Shown here one piece after another: positions 33,477 to 63,811 of a stretch of DNA of 64,000 nucleotides (positions within the stretch are counted from its first letter, which is position 1; every line of letters begins with the position of its first letter). The DNA comes from an uncultured bacterium (GTDB taxonomy: Bacteria > Zixibacteria > MSB-5A5 > UBA10806): the NCBI GenBank assembly GCA_965541585.1, contig CBEUCH010000015.1, positions 7,120-71,119 on the forward strand, written 5' to 3'. The translations under genes were made by a program, and so were the position numbers. The notes below the pieces were generated by a model. The model saw only the letters and a list, made by a program, of their open reading frames with translations. It did no database searches and was not told the origin of the DNA.

Positions 33477-34550
33477 TCAATAAGGAAGTTTTGCCACCAT
33501 GTCGGTCTTGTATTTTTCCGCAAGATGAGCGTATATTTCTGTGGTTTTGATGGAGGAATGACCCAATAGTTCCTTTATTGCGTATAGCGGCACTCCTGCC
33601 ATCGCAAGATGTGAGGCATAGGAAAAACGTAGGGAATGGCAGCTAGCCCAGTCCAGGCCTATCGAGGAACAGGTCTTACTGATTTTCCGGCTTACTGTAT
33701 CGGGTTTCCATTGTGGGAGTTCCTTTCCTTTTTCATCCCGGGAACCAAAAACTTTATTGTCTTTTCTCCTTTGAAGTGAACCAAGCATTTTCCCAAGACC
33801 ACTTTTTTTATCAAACCCAAGGTATCTATACCTTCTACTCTTCGAATTTGACGCCCTTATTGTAATCTGGCATTTATTGAAATCAATGTCATCCCAGGTT
33901 AATGATAAGGCCTCGCGAAGCCTAACGCCCGTCCATAAATAAAAATTCACAACATCTTGGAAAACAGTTCCTTCAAACGCTTCGCGTAACTTCTCAATTT
34001 CGTCTACTTCAAGATACTTTGGTCGAGGCGCACCTTGGCTCCGTAGCATTTTGATCCTTCTAAAAGGGCTCGTTTCCATTAGCCCCCAGCTAAGAGCGGT
34101 ATTAAATATTGCCTTAAGATGACGAAGCTCTAGATTTACCGTCGATTCTGAAATATGTGAGTTTTTTCTATTTGACGGCTGGCTGAGTCTGTGTCTAACA
34201 TAACCATCAACGAGGGCGCTATTGATTGTTTTCAATTCAACGTTTCCGATGTATTTCGCAAACAATCTCAATACTCTTTCTTCTCTGTTTAAAGTCGATG
34301 GCCTCTTTACAAGACTGCAGTGATTTAAATAATCACGCATAAAATCTTCGAGTAGAATATTCTCAAATTGCCCTACTGTAGATTTGCCTTCAACAAGCTG
34401 GCTGCAAAACTTATGGTACTCTTTTTGAGCAGTCCGTTTATCAACTTCACCGATTGTTTTTAATTGATCTCTGCCATTCAATCTGTAACGAATTACCCAC
34501 ACAGATCTCCCCGTCCTGTAATTTCTTTTTTGCAATGAGGCCATCAACAC
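33477..34550 (-). CDS. int: Tyrosine site-specific recombinase (phage integrase family)
   Basis: The C-terminal catalytic region has HSLRFSYASHLAMAGVPLYAIKELLGHSSIKTTEIYAHL (R..H..R..Y signature). The N-terminus has a SAM-like core-binding domain. Confidence 0.85.
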   Translation of the reverse strand: MLMASLQKRNYRTGRSVWVIRYRLNGRDQLKTIGEVDKRTAQKEYHKFCSQLVEGKSTVGQFENILLEDFMRDYLNHCSLVKRPSTLNREERVLRLFAKYIGNVELKTINSALVDGYVRHRLSQPSNRKNSHISESTVNLELRHLKAIFNTALSWGLMETSPFRRIKMLRSQGAPRPKYLEVDEIEKLREAFEGTVFQDVVNFYLWTGVRLREALSLTWDDIDFNKCQITIRASNSKSRRYRYLGFDKKSGLGKMLGSLQRRKDNKVFGSRDEKGKELPQWKPDTVSRKISKTCSSIGLDWASCHSLRFSYASHLAMAGVPLYAIKELLGHSSIKTTEIYAHLAEKYKTDMVAKLPY

Positions 34551-37859: not shown

Positions 37860-39758
37860 TCAGCGATCAGAGCGCCGATAAATCTTAAATATTGAACAAT
37901 AATAACCCATATCCCTATCGCATTCTATTAGATTTTCTTCTATTTTGAAAAAATGGCGCAATCGCTCATTTGTTTCTGAAATGTTTACTATTAAAGTGGC
38001 ATCAGTCTTCTTATAATGTAATATTCCGTTACTATCAGCCAGCTTACCCAGCACCTCTTCGTAAGGCCTAATTGAATTTCTTTTTGATTTTATATTCTGA
38101 AAACCCATCTCCTTAAACGTTCTAATTTCTGTTGGATGCTTTTTCCTAACATCATTGATATCAAATTTACATGAATCGTCTGCGAAACCAACTACAAGCT
38201 GCTTCCATTCAATTCCGGGTGGCAATATAAATGGGATTATTGAATCAATCGCTTCTTGTGGGATAGACGGTTTTTTCTCTTTGGCTTTTTGTTCTCTATC
38301 TATTAATAAACTATCTGGAAGTTCAGTCAAAGTGTTTTCATTATCATCAGCGAGGAGTACTGTTCGTTCAATTACTGACCGCAGTTCCCTTATGTTGCCC
38401 TCTTTCCAGCTGTGTAATTTTAGTTTCTTTAATAGATCTTTGGAAACTTTCCGGATATTTTTCCTGAATTGTTTCGAGAATTCAGCAATAAACAGGTTAA
38501 CAAACTTTTCAATATCGTCGCTTCTTTCTCTTAAAGGAGGTATATGTATCTCATAAGTATTTATCCGATGATAAAAATCCTCTCTCATAATGTTATTATC
38601 TATTAAGTGACGTGGTTTTTTGCTCAATGTCATAACTATTTTAATATCTGTTTTTATACTCTTGGTAAAGCCCTGTTCCTGTATTTCCCCCTTATCTAAA
38701 AACCTCAGCATCTTTCCCTGAAAATCATAAGGCATATCATTGACATTATCTAAAAATACTGTCCCTTTATCAGCCTGTTCAAAGATGCCCTTTTGATTGT
38801 GTATCCCTTCCAAAAAAGGTCTATTCTTGGCGCCGAATAGATAATACTCGAATGCAGCATTTGCAATCTCGGAGCAGTAAACAACATAGAACGGTTCCCT
38901 GTTTCTATTACTTTTGCCATGAAAATAGCGCGCAATAACATCTTTTCCGGTTCCGGGCTCACCGTTAAGTAATATGATTTTTGCTTCATCATACTTAGCG
39001 ATTTTTTCAACCTCTGATAAAACATTCTTAAAATTTGGAGCATCCCCGATTATAGTGAAAGGCTGATCAGCTATTTTCATAATTGCCGGTTTTGCCTGGT
39101 CAACATATGTCTGAATATTCCCGACGAGATCAGAATAACTGTCCGTATCTCCGAGAATATTAGCATACTTTTCACCAAGCCGGGCGAATGGGATTTCCTC
39201 AAGAGCGATATCGGCATTCTCACCCTTCCGCGGATAGAAATAATCTGGTGTCATGATGCCCTCGGGGTGTCGAAGGTAATAAAGATGATCTTGTTTTCTG
39301 CCTAATATTGTTAAGGCGAGTCCCAAATAAACGGACATTATTCTTCTTCCGCCCGCATATATACAGTGTAATTCTGTATCGGGGTCTTTTGTCAAGTTCC
39401 TAAGTAAATTCGCAATTTTATTCGCGGTCATTTCAAATTGTTCTGGAGTCTTTATATCATCCTGGATATTTCCTTTCTCATCTTCAATCATATAGATATC
39501 TTCTTCAGTAAATTTGGGGAATGTTTTATATTCCGCGCAAAACTTGCTGAAGACTTTGTTTTCGCCGAGTAAAGGGGGCATACCTGTTCTAGGATTACCC
39601 ATAAAGAGTTCGTCCCTGCCAATTGATGTTGTGATTAAGACTATTCTTTCAATATCGATGGGTCGCGGCCGTTTTCGGGTTCTAAAATACCAAAGCGACA
39701 GTGTTATAACGTTAGGGATGTTACCGAAGACGCCAAATAGCAAGTGCATCTTTTTCAT
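37860..39758 (-). CDS. Three-part protein: an N-terminal CARF-like Rossmann sensor domain, a degenerate sigma54-activator-type AAA+ core (GAFTGA absent, Walker B DE changed to DN), and a C-terminal 170-aa unknown domain with no Fis HTH
   Basis: The AAA+ core shows Walker A GEPGTGKDVIARYFH, an EYYLFG...RPFLEG segment replacing ESELFGHEKGAFTGA, Walker B VFLDNV, and IHIPPLRERSDDI plus SWKEGNIRELRSVIERTVLL (sensor II). The N-terminus has IVLITTSIG and IYAGGRRIMS, resembling CARF motifs hTLGTS and DxTSGTKAMS. Confidence 0.6.
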   Translation of the reverse strand: MKKMHLLFGVFGNIPNVITLSLWYFRTRKRPRPIDIERIVLITTSIGRDELFMGNPRTGMPPLLGENKVFSKFCAEYKTFPKFTEEDIYMIEDEKGNIQDDIKTPEQFEMTANKIANLLRNLTKDPDTELHCIYAGGRRIMSVYLGLALTILGRKQDHLYYLRHPEGIMTPDYFYPRKGENADIALEEIPFARLGEKYANILGDTDSYSDLVGNIQTYVDQAKPAIMKIADQPFTIIGDAPNFKNVLSEVEKIAKYDEAKIILLNGEPGTGKDVIARYFHGKSNRNREPFYVVYCSEIANAAFEYYLFGAKNRPFLEGIHNQKGIFEQADKGTVFLDNVNDMPYDFQGKMLRFLDKGEIQEQGFTKSIKTDIKIVMTLSKKPRHLIDNNIMREDFYHRINTYEIHIPPLRERSDDIEKFVNLFIAEFSKQFRKNIRKVSKDLLKKLKLHSWKEGNIRELRSVIERTVLLADDNENTLTELPDSLLIDREQKAKEKKPSIPQEAIDSIIPFILPPGIEWKQLVVGFADDSCKFDINDVRKKHPTEIRTFKEMGFQNIKSKRNSIRPYEEVLGKLADSNGILHYKKTDATLIVNISETNERLRHFFKIEENLIECDRDMGYYCSIFKIYRRSDR

Positions 39759-41241: not shown

Positions 41242-43767
41242 ATGTTTTGGGGCTTGAATATGAAGACTTTATCCAATTTAATTATTATGAACAGAAGTCT
41301 AATTTACGAGATTTTTTCACAACTTCAGGAAGGAGAGTACATCAGGTTAGCCTGGGAAGATAAAAATGAAGAGTTTCACTGGCAAGGAATAGACAACTAT
41401 GAACAATTTATAGCGAAAGTTAATGAATTAAGATCCAATCCCCATATAGCCAGTATCTGGTTTACGCCTCATCCGAGCAATTCGGAAACATCCCATGAAA
41501 ACGACAACGTTAAACATGTTCAATGGGTTTATGTCGATATCGATGATATTTCGACCGAAGATTTTATAAAGAACTACAATTTCATAAGACCAACATATAT
41601 TATTGCTACAGGTCACGGCGTTCAGCTTTATTGGCAGTTGAAGCAGCGTATAGCAGCACCTTTTGATGAATGGCGTTATGTCGAAAAGGCCATAGAGAAA
41701 AAGCTTAATGGAGAAAAAGGTTACCCTTGTGCTTTGCTTCGCGTTCCCGATACACCCAACAGAAAACATCTCATCGAGAAACATCGCAAAAAGGGATATA
41801 CAGTAGAAACCGATTGCAAGGTCATTGAATTTAATGATGTTGCCTACGGCCTTGATGATTTCATACAGGCCGGTTTGAAAATCAACGCTAAACCTGCTCC
41901 TACTATTCAAAGTAATGAATCTAAGCTGACAATCTCCGATCTAACGTGTATTCGTCAACACTGCGCTGCCGTAGACTCGGCGTTTAAATCTATTGAAAAT
42001 GACTCGGATAATGATAAAACGGCCGGTCACAATAAGCGTCTAACCGCTGCCAGCATCATAAAGCATACCGTTGATGATGAAGATTATGTGTTAAAGCTGT
42101 TCGGTAACACTGCTGATTTTAAAAAGGATGTCACGCTAAAGAACTATCAAAGTATAAAACAAAAACCAATCACTTGTAGGCAATTGCAGGAATGGAATCT
42201 TTGCTTCAAACCTTGCCAACTGATCCAAGACCTGAACAAGAAAAGCCCTATAGTATTTGCCTACCGCAAAGGAGTTCAGCTTAAGCGGACTAACGAATTA
42301 TTAAGCGACACTGAAAACGATGCCTGTTTTGAAGAACTTATGAAGCGGGCCAAAACAGTAGAAAATCCCGTTAATCAGTTAAAACTTATCAACAGAATAC
42401 AGGCTACAACCGGATTGAATAAAGCGGAAATCAGCCATTATATGCGTCGGGTCAAGGTTTTCGATGAATTAAATTCATATATAGTCAATGCCCAAGTGGA
42501 TCCTGTAAGAGCGGCAAAATACATAATCAAAAAATATCAACTGATGCGTTTTCAACAGGACTTTTATCAATTTGATGACGGCATATGGGAGCATAAACCG
42601 CAGGAAGAAACCGAATCACTTATTCATCACGAAATTGAAAAATACTCGGACAACCATACAATCAGCGAAGTCATTAACGCCGTAAAACGCGAATCATTGA
42701 TTACACATATACAAGTTGAGGATGCCCAGGATACTTATGTGATCGCGGCCGGTAACGGCTTATTAGATGTTCGTAATGACTCGCTTCGAGATTTTAAACC
42801 CGAAGATTATAGATTTGGGAAAATGGGTGCTGGTTATAATCCCGATGCCGATTGTCCGGCATTTAAGGATTTCATTAAAGAGCTGTTTCTTTTTGATGTT
42901 GACGCGTCAGATAAAAGGCTATTGGTGCAGGAGATATTTGGATATCTTTTAATCCCTGATTATACTTTGATAAAAAAGATGTTTTATTTCTACGGCCCTA
43001 AAGCCAACAACGGCAAATCCAGCCTAATTGAAATCATCCGATCGATTATGGGACCGGGCTACTTTGACAGCGTTCCTATGGATAAAATGAATGGTTTTCT
43101 GTTAAAACGCCTAATGGGAAAACATGCAAACGTCGTAGGAGATCAGGATGCTTACACTAAAGTTCCTGATGGAGTATTGAAACAGCTTATTGGCGGCATG
43201 GACGAAATTACCGCAGATGTGAAGTATAAAGATGCAATTAGCTTTATCAATCATGCCAGGCTGATATTCGCAGTAAACAAACTCCCATATTCTGAAGCGA
43301 AGGATGAGGGATACTTTACCAGGGCGGTTATTCTAACATTCAACAATCAATTTCTTATTAATCCAGACAAGAAGGATCCGCGGCAGATGAAAGCTGATAT
43401 TGAAAAGATACAGTACATAAAGGATAACGAAAAGGAGGGCATCCTAAATTGGATGCTGGAAGGTTTGAAAAGGCTATTGGTAAATAAGAAATTGACAATC
43501 CCGGCAACTTCGGCAACTGCCTTGAAGGACTACAAAACGAACAATAACAGCATATTACTATTTGTTAGTGATAGATGTCAGCTTGGATCATCATTTGAAG
43601 TGAGTCAATCTGAGTTGTATACCGATTATAAGGCATGGTGCTTAGATCAGGGATTTAAATTCTATGCAAATGCAATTACTTTCTGTGATCTACTTGAGCG
43701 GGAGTATAACGTAGCCCGCCAGAGGAATAAAAATTCACGACAGCTGTTAGGAATTCAAATGGCATAA
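41242..43767 (+). CDS. Primase-polymerase / D5-like helicase replication protein (phage/plasmid primase, P4 family C-terminal domain)
   Basis: The C-terminal NTPase has Walker A FYFYGPKANNGKSS and the surrounding conservation of the P4 alpha / poxvirus D5 family. The N-terminal half resembles a bifunctional prim-pol domain. Confidence 0.65.
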   Translation: MFWGLNMKTLSNLIIMNRSLIYEIFSQLQEGEYIRLAWEDKNEEFHWQGIDNYEQFIAKVNELRSNPHIASIWFTPHPSNSETSHENDNVKHVQWVYVDIDDISTEDFIKNYNFIRPTYIIATGHGVQLYWQLKQRIAAPFDEWRYVEKAIEKKLNGEKGYPCALLRVPDTPNRKHLIEKHRKKGYTVETDCKVIEFNDVAYGLDDFIQAGLKINAKPAPTIQSNESKLTISDLTCIRQHCAAVDSAFKSIENDSDNDKTAGHNKRLTAASIIKHTVDDEDYVLKLFGNTADFKKDVTLKNYQSIKQKPITCRQLQEWNLCFKPCQLIQDLNKKSPIVFAYRKGVQLKRTNELLSDTENDACFEELMKRAKTVENPVNQLKLINRIQATTGLNKAEISHYMRRVKVFDELNSYIVNAQVDPVRAAKYIIKKYQLMRFQQDFYQFDDGIWEHKPQEETESLIHHEIEKYSDNHTISEVINAVKRESLITHIQVEDAQDTYVIAAGNGLLDVRNDSLRDFKPEDYRFGKMGAGYNPDADCPAFKDFIKELFLFDVDASDKRLLVQEIFGYLLIPDYTLIKKMFYFYGPKANNGKSSLIEIIRSIMGPGYFDSVPMDKMNGFLLKRLMGKHANVVGDQDAYTKVPDGVLKQLIGGMDEITADVKYKDAISFINHARLIFAVNKLPYSEAKDEGYFTRAVILTFNNQFLINPDKKDPRQMKADIEKIQYIKDNEKEGILNWMLEGLKRLLVNKKLTIPATSATALKDYKTNNNSILLFVSDRCQLGSSFEVSQSELYTDYKAWCLDQGFKFYANAITFCDLLEREYNVARQRNKNSRQLLGIQMA

Positions 43768-46503: not shown

Positions 46504-47367
46504 ATGGCAAAATTAGGCATTTCAGAGTTTTCATTCAGCTTTTCTTTTCTGCATGAGCAGGTAAATAGAAATGGTAGACCATTCTGTGTTCCTGTATTAC
46601 CCTCTCTGCGTAGAGAATCTGATGTAGGGTATGATGCTAAGCTTCCTAAAAAGGGGATTGACTACTATTTCCAATTCAAAATGAGTGATTACTTGCGAGG
46701 TGGAAATGCCAAATTTATTAAGGATGGCACATATAGAAGTCTTTACTATCGAATTGCTCTGCATAAGGCCAAGAAGAACAAACAGCACAATCTTCTCTAT
46801 ATGCTTTCTCAAAAGAACCCATATGTTTACTACGTTGCACCTAAGCTAAGAACAGATCAGTCATTTTATGATGCTTGTGTAAGAAGGTTAGTTACGGTGA
46901 GTTCAATGATGATTCCAGTGGATTCCTGTGGTTATGTCAGCGATTCGCTTCAACACTTTGTGACATATCCAGAATTTGGCTATGAGTGGCATTTCCATTC
47001 AAAGCCCAAGCGATTTGATAATGCAATTGAAGGGGAGCGGATAGTTTCGCACTTCGCAGAAAGTTCTAAGAACTGGGTGGCTATCAACAAGGAATTCGCT
47101 TTGAATGTTTATGAACGAATAAAGCAATCAACATATGTATATCAGAGTGGTGATTTTGAAGGGATAGAAGATAATACGAGGAAAGCTATAGGCGATGACA
47201 AAAGATTAGGTATCGTAGGCGTAGAAACCAAAAAGCCAACTTTCAATGTTGAAGAGTTCTTTGATCGGAATATAAAAAAGTCAGATACTTTTACGATATT
47301 GCAGAGAGCATCCGCTATTGCGATGATGTTATATGGTTCAGCACTGATGATAGTCGGTGAAAACTAA
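46504..47367 (+). CDS. Hypothetical protein inserted between hsdM and hsdS
   Basis: It is a 287-aa open frame within the R-M operon, with 20-bp gaps either side. No motif is recognised. Confidence 0.4.
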   Translation: MAKLGISEFSFSFSFLHEQVNRNGRPFCVPVLPSLRRESDVGYDAKLPKKGIDYYFQFKMSDYLRGGNAKFIKDGTYRSLYYRIALHKAKKNKQHNLLYMLSQKNPYVYYVAPKLRTDQSFYDACVRRLVTVSSMMIPVDSCGYVSDSLQHFVTYPEFGYEWHFHSKPKRFDNAIEGERIVSHFAESSKNWVAINKEFALNVYERIKQSTYVYQSGDFEGIEDNTRKAIGDDKRLGIVGVETKKPTFNVEEFFDRNIKKSDTFTILQRASAIAMMLYGSALMIVGEN

Positions 47368-48557: not shown

Positions 48558-48923
48558 ATGGAAAGGTATATTCTAACAACCTATGATAAGAACAGATTAA
48601 GCTCCTATCCTATGATAATTTCAATACACGGTAAATCGTGGTGTTGTAAGCAGGCTCGAATCCTTGTTCAAAGTATGGATGGTGGTTTCATAACTGCTAA
48701 CTGTATGAAATGTAATAATAAAACGAATGTATTGATTGACGAATTTCAATCTTTTGATAGAGACGTAAACTGTCCCAAATGTGGTATGGTTATGTCTCCT
48801 GCTTATGTCCCTGATGGAAGTAAAATTGAAGAACGTAACTATGGTTTTAAGTGCATGAAATGTGATATTTATATATGGGCATCTGATTTAATTCCATATT
48901 ATGAAGATTTTCCATATAGATAA
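48558..48923 (+). CDS. Small zinc-ribbon protein (four CxxC pairs) inserted between hsdS and hsdR
   Basis: CC-KQ, CMKCNNK, CPKCGM and CMKCD motifs are present. AGGAGGG lies 6 nt before ATG 48558. Confidence 0.4.
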   Translation: MERYILTTYDKNRLSSYPMIISIHGKSWCCKQARILVQSMDGGFITANCMKCNNKTNVLIDEFQSFDRDVNCPKCGMVMSPAYVPDGSKIEERNYGFKCMKCDIYIWASDLIPYYEDFPYR

Positions 48924-48931
48924 TAAGAAAC

Positions 48932-55014: not shown

Positions 55015-55743
55015 GTGACAGTCAAAAAAAAGAAGACTCGGCGGAGCAGGCAATTAGTTCTAGGCCATTTAGAACGGATTTCGAGTAAAGTATTTTCTGA
55101 CTTCCCAAAGCAACTTACAGATTTAGTGAGCAAACAACACGGTGTTTACGCCCTTTATAAGGGCAACCGTCTCTATTATGTTGGGCTTGCCAGCAATTTG
55201 AGAAATAGAATCAGACATCATTTGCGAGACAGACATGCAGGGAAGTGGGACAAATTCAGCCTTTATCTGGTAAGAAAAGCTGATCATATAAAAGAGCTTG
55301 AATCATTGATCTTGCGAATTGCGGATCCAACAGGAAATGCAATAAGGGGGGGATTGGCCCGAGCCGAGAATTTGAGATTTGAACTTCAGGCAAAAATAAA
55401 AGCAGCCCAGGAGAAACAACTATTTAGCCTACTTGGCGCCAAGAAGAGGATAAAACTAAAGCAGAGAAGGTCTCGACCGCAAAGAAAGGTCAAGATGGCT
55501 TCTAAACCTGCTTTAGCTCCCTACGTCAAAAGGCGTTTTAAGATTCGTGCCAGAGATCGTGGAAAATTGTTCGAAGCGAGAGTTAGGAGCAATGGCACAA
55601 TCAATTTCAACGGGAATCTTTTTAATTCACCGTCTGGCGCTGGAAAGGCCGCAACCGGTCGTTTAAAAAATGGATGGTGGTTCTGGCATTTCAAGAATAA
55701 GAAAGGTGAATGGGTGCGTCTGAGGGAGTTGAGGCGTAAGTAG
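55015..55743 (+). CDS. GIY-YIG nuclease-domain protein with a basic C-terminal region
   Basis: The N-terminal GVYALYKGNRLYYVGLASNLRNRIRHH is a GIY-(10)-YVG...R...N signature. The C-terminal NGWWFWHF...GEWVRLRELRRK resembles the small domain often fused to GIY-YIG in R-M-associated proteins. Confidence 0.5.
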   Translation: MTVKKKKTRRSRQLVLGHLERISSKVFSDFPKQLTDLVSKQHGVYALYKGNRLYYVGLASNLRNRIRHHLRDRHAGKWDKFSLYLVRKADHIKELESLILRIADPTGNAIRGGLARAENLRFELQAKIKAAQEKQLFSLLGAKKRIKLKQRRSRPQRKVKMASKPALAPYVKRRFKIRARDRGKLFEARVRSNGTINFNGNLFNSPSGAGKAATGRLKNGWWFWHFKNKKGEWVRLRELRRK

Positions 55744-56076: not shown

Positions 56077-56904
56077 TTATTCACCTGGTTCACTTTCGTC
56101 AAGCGCAGAATTATCCGTTTTTGATTTTTCTTCTTGAAAGATAAGAATTGAAAGCGGTATTAACAACAAAATTACTAAAGTGAACGCGATAAATGCTAGG
56201 GAATTGTTTCCCACCCAAGCCTTAAAGCCATGTAATTCGGTTGGGTAATCAATCTTTACAGACCCAGACGAAAAACTAACCCGAGTATCTTTTTCATCAA
56301 ATTTGCTGTCGAGCTTATCTGCCCAGCAAACGACTCTGATTCCTTCTCCAGGCAATAGTGAACCTAAATCAATCCTGTGGTCATATTTCTCATTTCTATC
56401 CTCTTTTCCGATGTGCTCTATGAAACAGTAACCTGAAGAAGGTAGTTGCAAAACAAGCCCTTTTACTTCCCTGCTACCGTCATTTTGAATTCTAAAGGTC
56501 CAATACGACCTCAAATCATATATAACGTCACTATAATCGGGTAATCTACTTCGTAGGAAAGCGGAAATATTATTGCCGTGATCTTGGGGAGATAAACAGC
56601 TGTCTACCTCGATTCGTAGAACGGAGTCTATACTATCAGAGTATTCACGGCCTAGGACATTATTAATGAAATCAACAATCGGGTAAGGATCATAATGCTC
56701 ATGATGGGAGCCTGTTGCTTTGATGTCGAAATCTTTCGTAAATATTACGCCGTATAATTGAATTGCGTAATACACTGATCCAGGAATACCAAAAACAGCA
56801 ATGATCCATGGAAGCCAAAATTTGACTCTAAAATTCATCACTTTTCCTTCCTTAAAAGGACTTACGACCTCTATGAATTTATCAAATTTGAACAAGACTG
56901 TCAA
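56077..56904 (-). CDS. Hypothetical membrane protein (N- and C-terminal TM helices)
   Basis: It has the hydrophobic segments FWLPWIIAVFGIPGSVYYAIQLYGVIF and LAFIAFTLVILLLIPLSILIF. Internal ATG 56838 is an alternative start. Confidence 0.35.
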   Translation of the reverse strand: MTVLFKFDKFIEVVSPFKEGKVMNFRVKFWLPWIIAVFGIPGSVYYAIQLYGVIFTKDFDIKATGSHHEHYDPYPIVDFINNVLGREYSDSIDSVLRIEVDSCLSPQDHGNNISAFLRSRLPDYSDVIYDLRSYWTFRIQNDGSREVKGLVLQLPSSGYCFIEHIGKEDRNEKYDHRIDLGSLLPGEGIRVVCWADKLDSKFDEKDTRVSFSSGSVKIDYPTELHGFKAWVGNNSLAFIAFTLVILLLIPLSILIFQEEKSKTDNSALDESEPGE

Positions 56905-57036
56905 ATAAAAGCTAAAAATCTAATATGAGCACTTGGATATGCGGGAGTTGTACCTATATTCCCTTAAAACCGTCCTCATGCCTTCGTCGGCTGCCAAATT
57001 GACAAAGAACCTTATGCTATAAGGGTGGCACATCAA

Positions 57037-57063
57037 GCCGCCTCTTTTTAGTGGTATAAGAAC
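57037..57063 (+). promoter_or_regulatory. Promoter-like direct repeat copy 2 (GCCGCCTC-N-TTAGTGGTATAAGAA)
   Basis: It lies about 80 bp upstream of ATG 57142, and the same element is found at 54818. Confidence 0.35.
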
Positions 57064-57141: not shown

Positions 57142-57864
57142 TTGGATGATAAAATGTTGAAGACAGGCCAAATCCAGAAAGCCTTGGTCGAAGCTGGCTT
57201 TAATCCCGAAGAGGAACTGCTGAATCTGGAATCATCCGGCAGTGGTTTTGAAGTCCCTAGGATTAGGATCGATCATAAAGACTCGGGAAAACACCGTATC
57301 TATATTGACCACGGAGAGAACTACCTTGGCGGGGACACCCAGGAAGAGACCCTACCCGAGAGCACATTTCAGGCAGTCGTATTCGCGGAGCAGGACATCA
57401 GGGCCCTTTGGACAGATGGTATAGCACTGCCAATCTGCAGTGGAATAGACGGAAAGCCGATGGTGAACGATCCGGTTAGCCCGAGCTGTATGAATTGCGA
57501 GGAAGCAATCATCAACCGGGGCAAGTGCAAACCGAAAATCAGACTATGGCTGCTTCTCGAAAAAGAGGGACAGATCAGGCCATTTGTAATGAGCCTGAGT
57601 CCGACATCGATCAAACACTGGAACCAGCATAAAAGAAAGCTGAAGAGGTCGAGGCTTCCTGTCGTTGCGGTAACCACTGTCTTCAGTCTTCAGGACGTAA
57701 AGAAGAACAGCTACAGATGGGCGGAAGTCCTGTTTGACGTTGCCGGGAGGCCATCGATGGATACGCTTCAGATGGCCAAACAGGCCCGGGATGAGTTGGA
57801 TCGGGTGATGCAGGACATCACGGTCAGAGACTTTGAGGATTCTGGGGAACAGTCTGGGAGCTAA
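57142..57864 (+). CDS. Hypothetical protein (240 aa), upstream partner of the large helicase gene
   Basis: An open frame with a CSGIDG...CMNCEE...CKPK Cys cluster. No family is recognised. Confidence 0.4.
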   Translation: MDDKMLKTGQIQKALVEAGFNPEEELLNLESSGSGFEVPRIRIDHKDSGKHRIYIDHGENYLGGDTQEETLPESTFQAVVFAEQDIRALWTDGIALPICSGIDGKPMVNDPVSPSCMNCEEAIINRGKCKPKIRLWLLLEKEGQIRPFVMSLSPTSIKHWNQHKRKLKRSRLPVVAVTTVFSLQDVKKNSYRWAEVLFDVAGRPSMDTLQMAKQARDELDRVMQDITVRDFEDSGEQSGS

Positions 57865-58049
57865 GGGAAGAAGCCGGCCTCGTAAGGGGTCGGTTTCATC
57901 ATTCGCAAAATGAACTTGATGTTTGATTCTCGAAAATTTGCCTTTACATACGATTCGACCCACATTATTATGTATGAAATTCCGTAATTCTGTCAGACGC
58001 CTTGTAGGTCAACTGTTGTCTTAATAGCCACCAAATTAAGAGGCAACAA

Positions 58050-61000
58050 ATGGAAAATGAAAAATATGATAAAGGCGAAAGCGCAATGAAGGCCTGGTTT
58101 GATTCCTTCCGAATAAGAGACTGGATTGACATGGCAGAGCTAACCGAGAGGATTTCAGTATTTTCCGAAAAGGAATCACAATTTCTCCACAAAATGGCGG
58201 AATTGGCTGAGCAAGGTCCCCCTCCCACTGTTAAGCAAATTGGATTTGCTCAGAGTATTGTCGATAAGATTGGACTATCAAGAGGCGACCGTCCGATATC
58301 TGGCGAAATAAAGGTGGAGAAGATACTGGACAATAAAACCGCAGACAAAACTATGCACCTGACAGTACGCCTTGCTTGGCACTCTGACGGATGGAATGGA
58401 AACATATGTACCGCACCCGATAAGAATGATTACTGCGTAGGAGAACATTCGCTGTTATCAAAGAGGGTGAGGGAAAACAGAAACCTAGCAACTGAGTCAG
58501 AGCTCGCTGGGTGCAAATGTGACGAAGGCCACAATAAAGACTATCAGGCTCCATGTTACTGGTCCATCAATGCGTTGGGTGACTCTCCTATTCATTGTCA
58601 GCACGAACACGCAATTGAGAGAGGAGCACCTAAAATCGGAGAAGATCTTCCTCCCTATTCGGTTTTCACATGGCCTTTCAAACTATTTTTTTCCAGAAGC
58701 AAAGAGGAAAAGGAAAAAAACGGTAAATACCCTCCTATGCAGGAAGACAAGGCAATGCGCTTCTTCGGTAAATTTTCAGAAGGAAATTCTATAGTATTCC
58801 TTTATTGTAATTACGACAATCCGATTTCGGGTGACGACCAAAAATATCTGTTAGTCGGCTGTGGGTTGCTTAAAGGGAAAGGCAAATTAAGCCATTTTAA
58901 TATATCACGCGAGCGAATGAGTTGGTGGCAAGCTAAAAAAGAATTTAAAAACTTCTCCAATCTGAATTGGAGTTATAGAATCTCAATGGATCTGCCTAAG
59001 ATGGGCGTAATTATCCCGTATCACAATTATCTCAGACACGCCGTAGAAAATGATAATTACGCTTATCTCAACGAAATAAAGATAATAATTGATGAACCGG
59101 AGCTTATACCCGGCTTCAAATATGTGGCTATGGATATTGATGACGATCAGGCGATATACCTGCTTACTAAGATAAGAAAAAGCCTTTATAAGATGAAGGA
59201 ACAAGCTTTCTTAACAAAAACTGAATTTAATCTGGATGATGCAATAAGAAAGGCAGAATACTTGCTGGGTCTATGTTGGAACAAGAGAGGTTATCTTCCT
59301 GGTCTGGGGAAACTCGCACGGATATTTCTGGATCGCAGCAAGGCCGAGCCACTTAGATTAGACGAGTTATTTTCAACTATGACAGGCAGTGCAGATGCAG
59401 TTGAAGAGCTTATAAGTCTGCTAAATGATCCAGAAAACCTCCCCGATGAAATGGATGATTATTATGACGAGTTATCTGACTTGCACGATACGATAAGGTC
59501 TAAAGGTTTATCAACAGAGGAATTCATTCGGCTCTCAGCGTTAGACCTTACTGATCATCAATTTAGACGAATTGTACAAGGTAGGATCTCCGATAATGGT
59601 GTTGGGCTCAAGGATATATGCAATAATCCCTATGTCCTTTGCGAGGAATATCAGATAAGTGATTATGATCATATAGAGGACCCAATAACGGGTGACCAGA
59701 TCGATGGGTTGATACACGTATTTAAAATAGATATCGCATATTATCCTGATGTAAGATTTCAAAAGAAGCTAAAGTTGCTTCACAGGATGACGAGTGATGA
59801 TCCTCGAAGGATAAGAGCGCTAGCGATATCTTATCTTAGGGGAGTAGAGGAAAGCGGTGATTGTTTTGAAAGTGGAGTCGAACTGGGAAAGAGGCTCATG
59901 GAATATCCTTTGTTTTACAAATCTATTTATCTATTGCGAGAAGATATCTTAACTCATCCCGACAGGCCTCTGGAGAGCCATTTAGCAGAGAAGATAGTAA
60001 TAGAAAGAGATACTGAAAATCAAAGGATATTTTATTATTTAAAAGAAATCTATGAAGCTGAAAGATCCGTTGAAGATGCCATTAACTTTCTTCTCAGGCA
60101 GCCAGATATTGAAATCGCTCCACAATTGGGCGTCGGTGAATCGGCAACGTATCTTAAAAATAAACTGGGAGAAAGATTCAGGGAAGGACAATTTCTATTG
60201 GAACGCAGTAAGCTCTATGAGAAGATTCTAAAGAAAAGGGTTTTTGTTCTTTCTGGAGGACCAGGAACTGGTAAGTCGTTTGAACTTTTAAAGTTAATAG
60301 ATGTACTCAAGCAGGACGGGCAAAATTATCTGCTGCTTTGTCCCACAGGCAAGGCCACGTTACGACTTAAGAATAATGATGAGGGATTTGGAAATATCAT
60401 TGCTCGGACAATTGACAAATTCTTTGCCGAAAGAAAAAAGGAAAAGAATAGCAGATATGTCGTCGAAAACCTAATAATTGATGAATTTTCCATGGTAGAC
60501 TTGAAAAAAATGAGGGATTTGCTTGATATAGTAAGAGTGAAATCCCAGGATTTCAAGAGACTTATATTAGTTGGTGACGAGCATCAGCTTCCACCAATCG
60601 GGTATGGAAGAGTCCTTTATGATATAGTTAATTATTTGAAGAGAGATGCCCGCTATGAGGCTAATAATTATATTCGTCTGGAAACCAATTGCCGCCAAGA
60701 GTATGATGAAAACATAGTAAAGTTTGCTAGAATATTCTCCAGACAAGAAAGAAATCCGGAGCATTTACTGACGAAGATGGCTAAAGGCGGGAACGTATCA
60801 AAAGGATTATTAATACAATATTGGAACTCTCGAGAACAGCTATATGAGTTAATAACCTCGACATTTGCAAATATATTCGGAGACCAAAATACCGGCATCG
60901 ATCTTGATCTTTTGATAAACACAGTGTTTGGCTTAGAACAGGACGGAACCATCGATGAGAGTGACTCCCGATTCAATGAAAGTCTTAAAGTTGATAGGTT

Positions 61001-61964
61001 CCAAATAATATCTCCATACAGAACCGGGTTCTTCGGGGCGCTGGGTTTGAACAACTATGTTCAAGAGAAATTCAAAGGTAAGCAGAGTTTCATTCCTCGC
61101 CTTTCTTTGAAGCACGGGGATAAAATAATGCAGATTGAGAATATGTATAGTAATGATGGTAGAGAACTACTAATATCAAATGGCTCCCTCGGTGTTGTCC
61201 AGCAAAGAGGACAGTATGGAAAGTCGTTTTACTTTCTGGAAAGATCCAAACCTTTCACCCGCCTCAAAGAGGAGTCATTTGAGTTGGCCTATGCCATCAC
61301 GGTGCATAAGTCCCAGGGCAGTGGCTTTGACCATGTATTCTTCATTGTACCTTCAAAAAGCACGCTGCTGTCAAGAGAGCTAGTTTACACTGCTATGACC
61401 AGGTCTAAATTAGGCATTTCTATTTTTGTACACGATGCAGGGAAGATTGAAAGTAGGGCTAATAAATTCCACGAGATCATCAACAAATCAAGCGTAGAAT
61501 TACGTAAAACAAGCCTAATGGGAAAATATTACTGGGAATTTTCTTTGAATCCTGCTCCCGATGTGTATGTGAGATCTAGAGCAGAATATATCATTTATAA
61601 AAGCCTTTTAGAATTCAAAAAACAGGAAAGCAGTTTCTCGTTCGCCTACGAGAATCCTCTTGAGATTGATGAAGAATTATCTATAAAACCAGATTTCATA
61701 CTGATTACCCCGAAGGGCGAATTCTATTGGGAACACCTAGGCCGCCTTGGTGACATACACTACGAAGGATCTTGGCAAAGTAGGCGAAAGTTATATGAAA
61801 GAAAGGGTCTAATTGACAATTTGATTACCACCGACGAGCTTCTTGGCATACACGATAGCAAGATCAAAAAGATAATATTTCAAATTTGTCGTGGAAAGCT
61901 ATCTTCAGATAGAGAAGATGAAAAGTACTCATTACACCATTATCAGCTATCAGATTATTCTTAA
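58050..61964 (+). CDS. Large multidomain protein: an N-terminal 650-aa Cys/His-rich unknown region, a RecD/TraA-like SF1 helicase core, and a C-terminal Vsr/DUF559-like (PD-(D/E)xK) nuclease fold
   Basis: The helicase motifs are VFVLSGGPGTGKS (I), LLCPTGKATLRL (Ia), LIIDEFSMVD (II), LILVGDEHQLPPIG (III) and AITVHKSQGSGFD (V/VI). The C-terminal SRAEYIIYKSLLEF...KPDFILITPKGEFYWEHLG resembles a DUF559/Vsr-type endonuclease. Confidence 0.6.
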   Translation: MENEKYDKGESAMKAWFDSFRIRDWIDMAELTERISVFSEKESQFLHKMAELAEQGPPPTVKQIGFAQSIVDKIGLSRGDRPISGEIKVEKILDNKTADKTMHLTVRLAWHSDGWNGNICTAPDKNDYCVGEHSLLSKRVRENRNLATESELAGCKCDEGHNKDYQAPCYWSINALGDSPIHCQHEHAIERGAPKIGEDLPPYSVFTWPFKLFFSRSKEEKEKNGKYPPMQEDKAMRFFGKFSEGNSIVFLYCNYDNPISGDDQKYLLVGCGLLKGKGKLSHFNISRERMSWWQAKKEFKNFSNLNWSYRISMDLPKMGVIIPYHNYLRHAVENDNYAYLNEIKIIIDEPELIPGFKYVAMDIDDDQAIYLLTKIRKSLYKMKEQAFLTKTEFNLDDAIRKAEYLLGLCWNKRGYLPGLGKLARIFLDRSKAEPLRLDELFSTMTGSADAVEELISLLNDPENLPDEMDDYYDELSDLHDTIRSKGLSTEEFIRLSALDLTDHQFRRIVQGRISDNGVGLKDICNNPYVLCEEYQISDYDHIEDPITGDQIDGLIHVFKIDIAYYPDVRFQKKLKLLHRMTSDDPRRIRALAISYLRGVEESGDCFESGVELGKRLMEYPLFYKSIYLLREDILTHPDRPLESHLAEKIVIERDTENQRIFYYLKEIYEAERSVEDAINFLLRQPDIEIAPQLGVGESATYLKNKLGERFREGQFLLERSKLYEKILKKRVFVLSGGPGTGKSFELLKLIDVLKQDGQNYLLLCPTGKATLRLKNNDEGFGNIIARTIDKFFAERKKEKNSRYVVENLIIDEFSMVDLKKMRDLLDIVRVKSQDFKRLILVGDEHQLPPIGYGRVLYDIVNYLKRDARYEANNYIRLETNCRQEYDENIVKFARIFSRQERNPEHLLTKMAKGGNVSKGLLIQYWNSREQLYELITSTFANIFGDQNTGIDLDLLINTVFGLEQDGTIDESDSRFNESLKVDRFQIISPYRTGFFGALGLNNYVQEKFKGKQSFIPRLSLKHGDKIMQIENMYSNDGRELLISNGSLGVVQQRGQYGKSFYFLERSKPFTRLKEESFELAYAITVHKSQGSGFDHVFFIVPSKSTLLSRELVYTAMTRSKLGISIFVHDAGKIESRANKFHEIINKSSVELRKTSLMGKYYWEFSLNPAPDVYVRSRAEYIIYKSLLEFKKQESSFSFAYENPLEIDEELSIKPDFILITPKGEFYWEHLGRLGDIHYEGSWQSRRKLYERKGLIDNLITTDELLGIHDSKIKKIIFQICRGKLSSDREDEKYSLHHYQLSDYS

Positions 61965-62100: not shown

Positions 62101-62838
62101 ATGTCTAAAAGGGAACGCGGCAGCCGTAAACATATTCTGGAACTTGTCAATAAATCGGATTTCGTTAATGTAATGAACGATCTGCTGGATTCTCATGGAA
62201 TTGTATTCGCAGGTCAGGATCGACAACAGCCCAATACGAATAGTAAAGAAGAGTGGACACTCCGTCAATTCTGCAGTCAGCATTGCCAGGATTCCTTTGA
62301 TTTCGCCAGCTTTGACAAATGGTGGGTACCGGATAAATATAAGAATCCGACGTGGGATTTATTATCGACATGCGTCATTAAGGGACGACCAGGCCTACTA
62401 CTGGTCGAAGCTAAAGCGCATGAGGAGGAGCTGCATTTTGAAGGCAAAGAACTCGGAAACAACGCTTCGGAGCAATCCCGAAAAAACCACGAGCGGATTC
62501 GTCAATGCATAGAACAAGCCAACAAATCGTTAAATGAAAGGCGTGGAGGTTTCAATATTAGTATCGATAAATGCTATCAACTTAGTAACCGAGTGGCATC
62601 CGCCTGGAAGCTTGCGGAATGCGGTTTGCCAACAGTACTACTTTATTTGGGTTTCATTGGAGACAAGTACTTCGAAAATTATTTCATTGATTATGGCCAT
62701 TGGCAGAGGATGATGGGCGCACATATTATAAATGTCGTGCCGCTTTCGTTTCCCAGCAAAAATTTAGAATTTGAAAAAGAAGTGACTTTAATGATGTTAA
62801 TAAAATCATTACCAATCTTATCTGAGGGTATTTCTTAA
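62101..62838 (+). CDS. Hypothetical protein with a possible PD-(D/E)xK nuclease core
   Basis: TWDLLSTCV...GLLLVEAKAHEEE could be a D...(E)VEAK restriction-endonuclease-like motif. The evidence is weak. Confidence 0.3.
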   Translation: MSKRERGSRKHILELVNKSDFVNVMNDLLDSHGIVFAGQDRQQPNTNSKEEWTLRQFCSQHCQDSFDFASFDKWWVPDKYKNPTWDLLSTCVIKGRPGLLLVEAKAHEEELHFEGKELGNNASEQSRKNHERIRQCIEQANKSLNERRGGFNISIDKCYQLSNRVASAWKLAECGLPTVLLYLGFIGDKYFENYFIDYGHWQRMMGAHIINVVPLSFPSKNLEFEKEVTLMMLIKSLPILSEGIS

Positions 62839-62842
62839 TTTA

Positions 62843-63811
62843 TTGGTTATACCGCTTATATTTAGGTTTGCGGGGAACGCTATCAGAATTATGAAGCTTA
62901 AAAAAGACCAAAGATGGGATGGTTGGCCCGCAATTGATGAAGAATACTTTGATTCCCTCGCGGCGAACTTAACATTAAGACCAGAAATACCAAAACAGAT
63001 CCACCGCCTCATTAAACAAATGAAGTCGGTCTTAAGATTTTGCTATTTTGATTACGAATTGATTGGAATTACTAATCTTTTATCAGTGCTCGCATTTGAA
63101 ACTGCATTGAATCTTAAGTATCAAGAAATGGTTCCTGCGGAAGACCAAAATGCAAAAATTAGTCTTTTTCAGCTTATCAAATGGGGTGAAAGGGAAAATC
63201 TGTTTGAAGAGCACATAGATTCACTCCATTCGTTAAGGAAGGTTCGCAATATGTATGCTCACCCAAAGGATGCTATGATTTTTGGAATCATGGGGATTCA
63301 TTCAACAATAAAAATAATTGATTTAATCAATGGAATATATGATAGCCGGATAGATTATAGAATTAAACGTAAAAGAAAGACAGATAGGATTAATCGAGTT
63401 CTTTTCCACCGTTCGAAAGAAGGATTGATTCTCCAATTAGAGGATTTACGGCTTATCGTTTTTGATTCACGCCTTATTCTCTATAATAACCTCTCTTCAG
63501 ATCCAGAATATTATTTTTGGATATATCCGATATTTGAAATCAAAGAAGACGCGACAGAAGTAGATGAGAAGAAGCCGATTATACTGCACTGTAAATCCAT
63601 CAAATTTAAGAAATCAAGCGATGGTTGGAAGATGGTTATTGGAGAATCAACCTTGACAGAGATTGCTGGAAAAGAGGATAAGGAAAAATTCCGCCTCTGG
63701 CAAGAAAAACTCAATTCCTGTAAACTGCCTATTAAGTTTGCTATTGATCAAAGATACAATGATTTACGACGAGAGCTAATGTCGGATAAAATATACAAGT
63801 GGGCAGATTAA
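62843..63811 (+). CDS. HEPN-domain protein of Abi_2/AbiD-like type (R-x2-RN-x2-AH motif)
   Basis: SLRKVRNMYAHP matches the Rx4-6H HEPN catalytic motif in the RNxxAH form seen in AbiD/AbiF-type abortive infection proteins. It is 322 aa. Confidence 0.4.
   Translation: MVIPLIFRFAGNAIRIMKLKKDQRWDGWPAIDEEYFDSLAANLTLRPEIPKQIHRLIKQMKSVLRFCYFDYELIGITNLLSVLAFETALNLKYQEMVPAEDQNAKISLFQLIKWGERENLFEEHIDSLHSLRKVRNMYAHPKDAMIFGIMGIHSTIKIIDLINGIYDSRIDYRIKRKRKTDRINRVLFHRSKEGLILQLEDLRLIVFDSRLILYNNLSSDPEYYFWIYPIFEIKEDATEVDEKKPIILHCKSIKFKKSSDGWKMVIGESTLTEIAGKEDKEKFRLWQEKLNSCKLPIKFAIDQRYNDLRRELMSDKIYKWAD

What the first reader, a model, noticed from the sequence alone, without database searches (positions are those of the whole stretch)
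57142..61964. Two-gene cassette encoding a 1304-aa Cys/His-rich RecD-like helicase with a Vsr/DUF559-like nuclease tail
The large protein combines (i) a 650-aa N-terminal region with clustered Cys/His (…WHSDGWNGNICTAPDKNDYCVGEH…AGCKCDEGHNKDYQAPCYWS…IHCQHEH) and no family match, (ii) a complete SF1B RecD/TraA-type helicase motif set, and (iii) a C-terminal 150 aa matching the Vsr-like endonuclease fold (…E..I.YKSLLEF…PDFIL…GEFYWEH). Helicase-nuclease single-chain proteins are a recurring theme in anti-phage systems (Nhi-like, Hachiman and others), but this domain order and N-terminus appear distinct. A 240-aa Cys-containing protein precedes it, behind a promoter-like repeat shared with the GIY-YIG cassette.
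Basis: partly seen in the sequence, partly recalled or inferred. Interest (0 to 1): 0.8.

Follow-up and report, generated by a model that had tools for sequence, protein, structure and literature searches.

The report
Catalogued single-gene helicase–nuclease defence candidate
The 1304-residue protein is real and belongs to PDC-S68, a widespread but experimentally untested anti-phage candidate family that joins a new N-terminal domain (a possible DNA-base reader), a RecD-type motor and a Vsr-like nuclease; the small gene in front of it is not its partner.

Summary
Both ORFs exist as described (57142..57864, 240 aa; 58050..61964, 1304 aa). The large protein matches PADLOC model PDC-S68 end to end (1400 bits). 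PDC models are single- and multi-gene candidates predicted from being embedded in R-M, BREX or DISARM operons. No paper in the searched library mentions PDC-S68 or tests it.

Its three modules are conserved in 73 full-length relatives from bacteria and archaea:
- **Helicase:** complete RecD2-like SF1B motif set.

Relatives sit in restriction contexts, often hsdM-hsdS-[gene]-hsdR, and almost never on plasmids or phages.

The "two-gene cassette" fails. The 240-aa protein has no homolog near any of 80 relatives. Elsewhere it is the third gene of a DUF932-PDDEXK_1 module on integrative elements.

Most likely this is an autonomous ATP-driven helicase-nuclease restricting foreign DNA, possibly modification-dependent. 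It is a new member of a known, uncharacterised kind.

The parts
58050..61964 (+). Gene for the 1304-aa PDC-S68-family helicase-nuclease (stop codon included)
   Evidence: ORF. PADLOC PDLC05064 at 1400.5 bits, residues 24-1300 against model positions 6-1272 of 1273. 247 homologs at E <= 1e-10, most of them 1150-1330 aa.
58050..58334 (+). Residues 1-95: four-helix N-terminal leader followed by a disordered linker (79-97). Present in only part of the family.
   Evidence: Model helices 10-18, 22-34, 40-55 and 61-78, with pLDDT below 50 at 79-97. Many relatives start directly at the next domain.
58344..59309 (+). Residues 99-420: family-specific N-domain. A beta-rich core has a Cys/His-bearing insertion of about 70 residues. 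It is a candidate PUA-like (EVE/YTH/ASCH-type) base reader with a candidate C3H metal site (H111, C120, C129, C169).
59310..60215 (+). Residues 421-722: helical linker with winged-helix and HhH-like elements. From about residue 580 it aligns with the N-terminal part of RecD2.
60216..61439 (+). Residues 723-1130: RecD2-like SF1B helicase core (domains 1A and 2A plus an SH3 insert)
   Evidence: AAA_19, AAA_30, SH3_13 and UvrD_C_2. RecD 1w36_D and RecD2 3e1s. Invariant G736, G741, K742, D811/E812, D843, Q846, R882, H1086, Q1089 and R1118.
61524..61961 (+). Residues 1159-1304: Vsr-like PD-(D/E)XK endonuclease domain
57943..57971 (+). Promoter-like site (TTTACA-17-TATTAT) in the 185-nt gap upstream of the helicase gene. 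Consensus match only.
   Evidence: The number of promoter-like sites in the region is not above chance (23 against 16.9 +/- 4.6).
57142..57864 (+). Adjacent 240-aa gene. NOT part of the system: it is a backbone gene of an integrative element, here without its usual DUF932 and PDDEXK_1 neighbours.
   Evidence: 174 homologs; the 120 listed are mostly 234-241 aa. DUF932-PDDEXK_1-[240 aa] order in three independent contigs. Absent from all 80 relatives' loci. The window has no DUF932 or PDDEXK_1 homolog.
57030..57062 (+). Second copy of a 33-nt repeat (first copy 54810-54842, upstream of the GIY-YIG gene). It contains TGGTATAAGAA and overlaps a hairpin plus T-run at 57023-57043. It lies upstream of the 240-aa gene, not the helicase gene.
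   Evidence: Absent from all other loci fetched.

Best explanation
The 1304-aa protein is an autonomous, single-polypeptide, ATP-driven helicase-nuclease of the PDC-S68 family. It is carried as cargo on a tRNA-Leu-integrated island, downstream of a type I R-M operon, and it most likely restricts invading DNA.

Proposed mechanism:
1. The RecD2-like SF1B motor loads on DNA and translocates 5'->3'. This is inferred from family membership of the motor.
2. The family-specific N-domain inspects bases. It is a divergent PUA-like barrel with many invariant aromatic residues and a candidate C3H metal site. It would read a modification or another non-self feature. This is inferred from the fold only and is the weakest step.
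3. A positive read licenses the C-terminal Vsr-like PD-(D/E)XK endonuclease (E1179, D1215, E1228, H1229) to nick or cut. The fold and the conservation are shown; the activity is inferred.

Riding inside or beside type I R-M operons would then give complementary cover. The R-M system attacks unmodified DNA and this enzyme attacks DNA that escapes by modification, as shown experimentally for the type I-embedded TgvAB system. The upstream 240-aa gene plays no part.
For: - Family identity: full-length PDC-S68 hit. PDCs were defined by embedding in type I R-M, BREX or DISARM systems.
- Independent context analysis of 80 species-level loci. An N6-methyltransferase lies within 10 kb in 31 of 80 (20 of the 43 with full flanks). 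hsdM plus hsdS occur in 21. hsdS is immediately upstream in 11, hsdR starts within 50 nt downstream in 9, and both hold in 6. Other neighbours are SauUSI-like PLD-helicase-DUF3427, SNF2, a sacsin-type ATPase, a type ISP-like MTase and SRA-HNH.
- No conserved partner gene on either side.
- All three modules are under strong constraint across bacteria and archaea, down to 27% identity.
- N-domain fold nearest EVE/YTH/ASCH/THYN1/VcaM4I. EVE, ASCH and DCD readers are known to associate with type I R-M operons (PMC7641849).
- Nuclease fold.
- Helicase core.
- Precedent for a type IV system embedded in a type I operon (PMC11411939).
- The family is rare on plasmids (4 of 72,556) and phages (1 fragment), and on the two plasmids inspected it is again next to R-M genes.
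Against: - No experiment exists for any family member in the searched literature.
- Tight coupling to methyltransferase genes in some loci fits a partner-dependent model as well as a type IV one.
- RecD-type motors need a 5' single-stranded entry site, which points equally to sensing of ends or replication intermediates.
Confidence: 0.55

Rival explanations
1. Damage-, end- or replication-intermediate-sensing helicase-nuclease, working like Nhi, Hna, Hachiman or Gabija. The SF1B motor loads on phage DNA ends or single-stranded replication intermediates and the nuclease degrades them, or degrades all DNA as abortive infection. The N-domain would be regulatory or autoinhibitory rather than a base reader.
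For: RecD-type motors act from 5' single-stranded ends (established knowledge; core identity). Single-chain helicase-nucleases with this logic are known defence systems. The PUA-like call is not corroborated by Foldseek. Half of the loci with full flanks have no methyltransferase nearby.
Confidence: 0.25
2. Partner-dependent restriction module. The protein supplies motor and nuclease to a neighbouring methyltransferase/specificity module (HsdM/S or a type ISP-like MTase-TRD protein). The N-domain would read the m6A mark as the self signal.
For: The gene is wedged between hsdS and hsdR with gaps of 0-50 nt in several loci. On Paracoccus plasmid p7 a type ISP-like protein directly precedes it by 19 nt; Pfam finds only N6_Mtase and Type_ISP_C in that protein and no helicase or nuclease domain, though its first 300 or so residues are unassigned. 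A similar MTase is adjacent in L078 and L054. All associated methyltransferases identified are of N6-adenine types, and YTH domains are m6A readers (established knowledge).
Against: 23 of the 43 loci with full flanks have no such methyltransferase within 10 kb. In this window four unrelated genes and 6 kb separate it from hsdR. Embedded loci keep an intact hsdR, so a second motor-nuclease is not needed. Tight embedding is largely confined to Bacteroidota (titles combined).
Confidence: 0.12
3. One reading: a two-gene cassette in which the 240-aa Cys-containing protein is a functional partner of the helicase-nuclease.
For: Same strand and adjacent, 185 nt apart.
Against: tblastn finds no 240-aa homolog in any of 80 relatives' loci, nor in L084-L086. 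The 240-aa family instead follows DUF932 and PDDEXK_1 genes next to varied cargo on integrative elements. The gap contains its own promoter-like site.
Confidence: 0.03
4. A housekeeping or mobile-element DNA-processing helicase (RecD of RecBCD, RecD2 repair helicase, or TraA/TraI-type conjugative helicase) rather than a defence protein.
For: Helicase-core similarity to RecD, RecD2 and TraA models.
Against: All NCBIfam scores are far below cut-off: RecD2 228 against 500, RecD 200 against 310, TraA_Ti 73 against 590. There is no relaxase domain. None of the recurrent neighbour clusters that were annotated is a recB/recC or transfer gene; they are R-M and defence genes. The family is found on 4 of 72,556 plasmids, 3 of them non-mobilizable.
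Confidence: 0.03

Closest known systems
PADLOC PDC-S68 (single-gene 'phage defence candidate'; PDC set of Payne et al. 2024, bioRxiv 10.1101/2024.01.29.577857)
   Same: Full-length profile match at 1400 bits, single gene, found in or beside R-M operons.
   Different: Nothing differs in kind; this is a member, 58% identical to its nearest relative. The family has no published domain analysis or experimental test in the searched library.
RecD2 (Deinococcus radiodurans, PDB 3e1s) and RecD (E. coli RecBCD, 1w36_D)
   Same: SF1B motor with SH3 insert and an HhH-type N-terminal element. All helicase motifs are present.
   Different: It has an extra 580 or so N-terminal residues and a C-terminal nuclease. 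Scores are below the equivalog cut-offs. The genomic context is R-M/defence rather than repair.
Hhe (single-gene helicase-nuclease defence protein, annotated DUF4011)
   Same: One polypeptide with helicase and nuclease domains, and experimentally anti-phage. From my own knowledge, Hhe's helicase is SF1 and its nuclease is also Vsr/DUF559-like.
   Different: No DUF4011 match here, and only a sub-threshold AAA_11 hit (26.4 against 27 bits). Hhe is about 1630 aa, with a different (in my recollection Upf1-like) motor and no equivalent of the N-domain.
SauUSI and other modification-dependent enzymes that pair a reader domain with a nuclease (PUA/EVE-HNH such as VcaM4I; McrBC)
   Different: Here the motor is SF1B and the nuclease is Vsr-like. 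SauUSI uses PLD, an SF2 motor and DUF3427.
TgvAB (GmrSD-like type IV system embedded in the Vibrio cholerae type I R-M operon)
   Same: Same genomic habit: it sits inside a type I R-M operon. The paper suggests the two systems are complementary (PMC11411939).
   Different: Unrelated proteins, and a two-gene system.
Vsr endonuclease / DUF559 / I-Bth0305I / Bax1 / RAP branch of PD-(D/E)XK nucleases
   Different: No HMM-level membership. Here the domain is fused to a helicase, as in ARMADA YprA helicases (PMC12458937).

Membership tests
PADLOC PDC-S68 | Full-length match to the family HMM | tested here: met
   PDLC05064 at 1400.5 bits, E = 0, residues 24-1300 against positions 6-1272 of 1273. Two further PDC-S68 models score 596 and 525 bits.
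PADLOC PDC-S68 | Single-gene system (no obligatory partner) | tested here: met
   No neighbour of the window gene is shared with any of 86 relatives' loci. Clustering of neighbours finds only R-M/defence genes, each present in a minority of loci.
PADLOC PDC-S68 | Occurs embedded in type I R-M, BREX or DISARM operons (the basis of the PDC set) | tested here: met
   hsdS immediately upstream in 11 loci, hsdR immediately downstream in 9, both in 6. The criterion is as described. In this window the gene lies 6 kb downstream of hsdR and is not embedded.
PADLOC PDC-S68 | Confers anti-phage protection | not testable with these tools
   No experimental report found.
SF1B RecD-like helicases | Walker A, Walker B and the remaining SF1 motifs, plus the SH3 insert | tested here: met
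   AAA_19, AAA_30, SH3_13 and UvrD_C_2. K742, D811/E812, D843, Q846, R882, H1086, Q1089 and R1118 are invariant.
RecD2 / RecD orthologs (NCBIfam equivalogs) | Score above the curated cut-off | tested here: not met
   TIGR01448 at 227.8 against 500; TIGR01447 at 200.4 against 310.
TraA/TraI conjugative relaxase-helicases | Relaxase domain, score above cut-off, transfer-operon context | tested here: not met
   TraA_Ti at 73 bits against 590, helicase part only. The family is on 4 of 72,556 plasmids, 3 of them non-mobilizable; on the two inspected it sits next to R-M genes.
Vsr (PF03852) / DUF559 (PF04480) | Sequence-profile match | tested here: not met
   No such hit for any of 20 C-terminal domains at E <= 10. 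No PDB sequence hit for the profile.
Vsr-like branch of the PD-(D/E)XK fold | Fold similarity, with acidic/His residues conserved at the expected alpha1, beta2 and beta3 positions | tested here: met
PUA-like superfamily (EVE / YTH / ASCH) | Sequence-profile match to EVE, YTH or ASCH | tested here: not met
   No Pfam hit for 19 N-domains at E <= 10. No PDB sequence hit.
PUA-like superfamily (EVE / YTH / ASCH) | Fold similarity | tested here: inconclusive
Hhe | DUF4011 domain | tested here: not met
   No DUF4011 hit in Pfam at E <= 0.1. Hhe is annotated DUF4011.
Nhi | Match to the Nhi model beyond the P-loop, with an N-terminal nuclease | tested here: not met
   26 bits, model positions 175-344 of 470 only.
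Type IV (modification-dependent) restriction enzymes | Cleavage requires a modified base in the target | not testable with these tools
   Inferred only from the tentative reader fold and the genomic habit.

The most novel reading that the evidence does not exclude
PDC-S68 proteins form a new architecture of restriction enzyme. An SF1B (RecD-type) translocase-nuclease would use a previously unrecognised, YTH/EVE-like, metal-stabilised N-domain to read N6-methyladenine written by the type I or type ISP-like methyltransferase it sits beside. It would use that mark as the self signal and so act as an alternative restriction arm of those R-M systems, rather than as an independent type IV enzyme.
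Probability: 0.1. Interest if true: 0.8.

Novelty: new member of a known kind. Interest (0 to 1): 0.45.

Why it matters
PDC-S68 is widespread: about 1,000 clusters at 50% identity, and 267 species-level genomes from many bacterial phyla and several archaeal lineages. It has no experimental or structural description. This analysis gives it a testable anatomy: a family-exclusive N-domain with a possible base-reader fold and a candidate C3H site, a RecD2-like motor, and a Vsr-like nuclease with a defined catalytic set. It also shows the gene can be tested on its own. That would help explain why such genes nest inside type I R-M operons.

Tried and rejected
- **Partner search.** tblastn of the 240-aa protein, the 275-aa minus-strand protein, the GIY-YIG protein and the 245-aa and 322-aa downstream proteins against 80, then 86, relatives' loci found no shared neighbour. 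The two-gene model was rejected.
- **Sequence family for the N-domain.** Pfam at E <= 10 on 19 members, and a profile search against PDB sequences, found nothing.
- **Other architectures carrying the N-domain.** An exhaustive profile search found only this architecture among the listed hits. The proteins of about 780 aa proved to be contig-truncated fragments ending inside the helicase.
- **Sequence family for the nuclease.** No Vsr or DUF559 hit. Only weak DUF7200 hits appeared, in 8 of 20 members with best E 1.2e-3, and these were not followed.
- **Foldseek confirmation of the PUA-like fold.** Negative.
- **Literature.** No paper mentions PDC-S68, and the supplements of the source preprint do not contain the term.
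- **Conjugation or plasmid role.** Rejected.
- **Fe-S cluster idea (C120, C129, C169, C605).** Dropped, because C605 is conserved in only 37 of 74 sequences.
- **Shared repeat.** It is absent from other loci, has no Rfam match, and was not called as a sigma-70 promoter by the scan.
- **Second att copy of the tRNA-Leu 3' end.** None in the window, so the island's far end lies beyond 64 kb.
- **Source contig look-up.** A look-up by exact protein failed.
Full report
**Observation**

Both ORFs are present as stated. One is 57142..57864 (+, 240 aa, TTG start 6 nt after GAAAGGAG). The other is 58050..61964 (+, 1304 aa, ATG after AAGAGG). They are separated by 185 nt. That gap holds a promoter-like TTTACA-17-TATTAT site at 57943-57971. 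Such sites are not enriched over chance in the region, so this is weak evidence.

The shared repeat is real. Copies at 54810-54842 and 57030-57062 are 27/33 identical and contain TGGTATAAGAA, with two copies in the window against none in 100 shuffles. The repeat precedes the GIY-YIG gene and the 240-aa gene, not the helicase gene. The second copy overlaps a hairpin plus T-run. It is absent from every other locus fetched and matches no Rfam family.

**Identity of the large protein**

Pfam finds only the helicase core: AAA_19/AAA_30 at 723-898, SH3_13 at 1000-1052 and UvrD_C_2 at 1079-1120. NCBIfam matches RecD2, RecD and TraA models, but all far below their cut-offs, and the TraA matches cover the helicase part only. 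PDB sequence hits are RecD and RecD2.

PADLOC gives a full-length match to PDC-S68: PDLC05064 at 1400.5 bits, residues 24-1300 against positions 6-1272 of 1273. The PDC set consists of 145 candidate systems derived by "guilt-by-embedding" in type I R-M, BREX and DISARM operons, and they are untested (bioRxiv 10.1101/2024.01.29.577857). No paper in the library mentions PDC-S68. It is not among the PDCs tested in PMC12881386, and the source preprint's text and supplements do not name it.

**Distribution**

- 247 proteins match at E <= 1e-10, nearly all 1150-1330 aa. The nearest is 58% identical.
- 267 confirmed loci occur among GTDB species representatives. They include Bacteroidota, Bacillota, Pseudomonadota, Myxococcota, Planctomycetota, CPR lineages and archaea such as Nitrosopumilus, Thermococcaceae, Methanosuratincola and Bathyarchaeia.
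- The host of this window is probably a member of candidate division Zixibacteria. This is judged from the best named homologs of a flanking chromosomal gene on the same 86-kb contig, and is a weak inference.

**Anatomy**

AlphaFold2 models were built from family alignments. Residues 1-700 gave pLDDT 89.7 and pTM 0.83. In the model of residues 1120-1304, residues 1165-1304 score above 90.

1. *Residues 1-95* form a four-helix leader followed by a disordered linker. Many relatives lack it.
2. *Residues 99-420* form a beta-rich domain with an insertion of about 70 residues.
   - No Pfam model matches any of 19 members even at E <= 10, and the profile finds no PDB sequence.
   - Foldseek against the PDB gives nothing significant, with best E 0.2. 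I therefore treat the PUA-like assignment as tentative, at roughly 0.6.
   - An exhaustive profile search finds the domain in 1039 representative clusters. Every listed hit that I checked has this same architecture, and the shorter hits are fragments truncated inside the helicase.
3. *Residues 421-722* are helical, with winged-helix and HhH-like elements. They align to the N-terminal part of RecD2 from about residue 580.
4. *Residues 723-1130* are the SF1B core.

**Conservation**

In an alignment of 73 full-length relatives plus the window protein, down to 27% identity:

- *N-domain.* H103, R107, W110, H111, W115, G117, C120, C129, C169, W208, Y252, W307 and Y327 are invariant, and Y324 is kept in 73 of 74.
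- *Helicase.* All the motif residues checked are invariant or nearly so.
- *Nuclease.* S1176, E1179, D1215, F1216, E1228, H1229, G1231 and Y1238 are present in all 73 sequences that align there.
- *Not conserved.* H185 and C605 vary. The only family-wide Cys/His set is H103/H111 plus C120, C129 and C169. This is a candidate C3H metal site, not an Fe-S cluster.

All three modules are therefore under selection together.

**Context of relatives**

I clustered the ORFs within 10 kb in 80 loci.

- The recurrent neighbours are HsdM (29 loci by HMM), HsdS (23) and HsdR (18). YgjP, a common type I companion, recurs in 6 loci.
- HsdS is immediately upstream on the same strand in 11 loci. HsdR starts within 50 nt downstream in 9. 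Both hold in 6.
- An N6-methyltransferase lies within 10 kb in 31 of 80 loci, and in 20 of the 43 with at least 5 kb on both sides.
- Tight embedding is mostly seen in Bacteroidota. Looser association occurs in Pseudomonadota, Bacillota and on plasmids.
- Other neighbours are SauUSI-like PLD-ResIII-DUF3427, SNF2 plus a sacsin-type GHKL ATPase, and PLD-SNF2 plus a type ISP-like MTase.
- In the closest relatives with context, the order is hsdR-hsdM-hsdS-AAA_21-363 aa-[gene]-168 aa-322 aa-SRA/HNH.
- Only 4 of 72,556 plasmids (3 non-mobilizable) and one unannotated fragment in the phage collection carry the N-domain. On a Paracoccus plasmid the gene follows a type ISP-like MTase-TRD gene by 19 nt. 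On a Bartonella plasmid it adjoins a type I R-M locus.

**Context in the window**

The gene order is as follows:

- tRNA-Leu (33281-33368)
- integrase (33477..34550, -)
- a CARF-sigma54 regulator
- an HTH protein
- a D5/DUF5906 primase-helicase
- hsdM, a 287-aa ORF, hsdS, a 121-aa ORF, hsdR
- an AAA_13/PDC-S06 (PrrC-like) gene
- a GIY-YIG+RAMA (PDC-S14) gene
- a 275-aa membrane ORF (-)
- the 240-aa gene
- the PDC-S68 gene
- two ORFs with no matches

G+C falls from about 0.49 to about 0.40 across this stretch. The gene is therefore cargo of an integrative island. It lies downstream of, but not inside, a type I operon.

**The 240-aa gene**

It belongs to a well-conserved family: 174 hits, the 120 listed mostly 234-241 aa, with no Pfam domain and only weak PHROG matches. 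In three independent contigs it is the third gene of DUF932 - PDDEXK_1 - [240 aa]. These contigs carry defence or other cargo genes (KAP NTPase; GmrSD plus type III R-M; an FtsK_SpoIIIE-domain protein with a weak MAD7 hit); one also carries integrases and a DUF5906 primase-helicase.

No homolog lies near any relative of the helicase, and the window lacks DUF932 and PDDEXK_1 genes. It is a mobile-element backbone gene that happens to be adjacent. The two-gene cassette is not supported.

**Mechanism**

Shown: the architecture, the joint conservation of three modules, the absence of a conserved partner, and the restriction/defence neighbourhood.

Inferred: the RecD2-like motor translocates 5'->3'. 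The N-domain reads a base modification or other non-self feature. The Vsr-like nuclease cuts.

Rivals:
- Sensing of ends or replication intermediates, as in Nhi, Hna or Hachiman (0.25).
- Dependence on a neighbouring methyltransferase/specificity module (0.12). This is suggested by the MTase-TRD gene without a recognisable helicase or nuclease domain directly upstream on the Paracoccus plasmid, but contradicted by the 23 of 43 loci with no methyltransferase nearby.
- The two-gene model (0.03).
- A housekeeping or conjugative helicase (0.03).

**Comparison and verdict**

The gene is a member of PDC-S68 and meets all testable criteria for it. It works like other single-chain helicase-nucleases (Hhe, Hna, Nhi, SauUSI) but belongs to none of them. 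There is no DUF4011 match, the Nhi match covers only the P-loop region, and the motor and nuclease types differ. It is not an ortholog of RecD or RecD2, and not a relaxase. Its nuclease is Vsr-like by fold but not by sequence family.

This is a new member of a catalogued, uncharacterised candidate family. It is of moderate interest because the family is large, crosses the bacteria-archaea divide and now has a testable domain model.

Noticed in passing
window 57142-57864; L081 6293-8723; L082 6211-8726: The 240-aa protein belongs to a family with no Pfam or NCBIfam match. Elsewhere it always follows DUF932 and PDDEXK_1 (Cas4/RecB-like) genes, on contigs with varied defence cargo; L082 also carries integrases and a DUF5906 primase-helicase. 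This may be a recombination or anti-restriction module. Here it has lost both partners.
   Followed up: partly
window 54810-54842 and 57030-57062: A 33-nt direct repeat (82% identical) containing TGGTATAAGAA lies upstream of two unrelated genes, the GIY-YIG gene and the 240-aa gene. The second copy overlaps a hairpin plus T-run at 57023-57043. It is not found in any related locus and has no Rfam match. It could be a shared regulatory site or a scar at a cargo-module junction.
   Followed up: partly
window 44933-52054: The window's own type I R-M operon is interrupted twice. A 287-aa ORF (46504..47367, no hits) lies between hsdM and hsdS. A 121-aa ORF (48558..48923) lies between hsdS and hsdR, with weak PADLOC PDC-M14A (E 9e-6) and SIR2 (E 1e-3) hits. 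These are further 'embedded' candidates.
   Followed up: partly
window 52155-55743: Directly after hsdR come an 830-aa AAA_13 ATPase (PADLOC PDC-S06, weaker PrrC match) and a 242-aa GIY-YIG plus RAMA protein (PDC-S14). These are two more catalogued but untested single-gene candidates in the same island.
   Followed up: partly
window 33281-43767: Start of the island: tRNA-Leu, then an integrase (33477..34550, -), a CARF (Cas_NE0113) - sigma54 activator of RtcR type (37860..39758, -), an HTH protein and a D5_N/DUF5906 primase-helicase (41242..43767). G+C drops from about 0.49 to about 0.40. No second copy of the tRNA 3' end occurs in the window, so the far boundary lies beyond 64 kb.
   Followed up: partly
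window 62101-63811 and 56077-56904 (-): Two adjacent ORFs downstream of the helicase gene (245 aa and 322 aa, 4 nt apart) and a 275-aa ORF on the other strand, which looks like a membrane protein from its hydrophobic stretches, have no significant match in Pfam, NCBIfam, PADLOC or PHROGs and no homolog in any fetched locus.
   Followed up: partly
L087 5629-12606 (Paracoccus plasmid p7); L078 6082-13627; L054: In a distant branch of the family the gene directly follows (14-19 nt) a type ISP-like protein. In the Paracoccus copy Pfam finds only N6_Mtase and Type_ISP_C, with no helicase or nuclease domain, although the first 300 or so residues are unassigned. This could be a split R-M arrangement in which the PDC-S68-like protein supplies the motor and nuclease.
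   Followed up: partly
L052, L063, L068, L072 (about 3.6 kb upstream to 14-96 nt upstream of the match): Four distant relatives share a three-gene order: an SNF2 helicase (about 1030-1100 aa), a sacsin/HATPase_c_3 protein (about 1190 aa) and then the PDC-S68-like gene. This resembles an Hma-type helicase/ATPase system.
   Followed up: no
C-terminal domain alignment A5 (residues 1157-1304): Eight of 20 C-terminal nuclease domains give weak hits to Pfam DUF7200 (best E 1.2e-3). This may be the nearest sequence family, but it was not examined.
   Followed up: no
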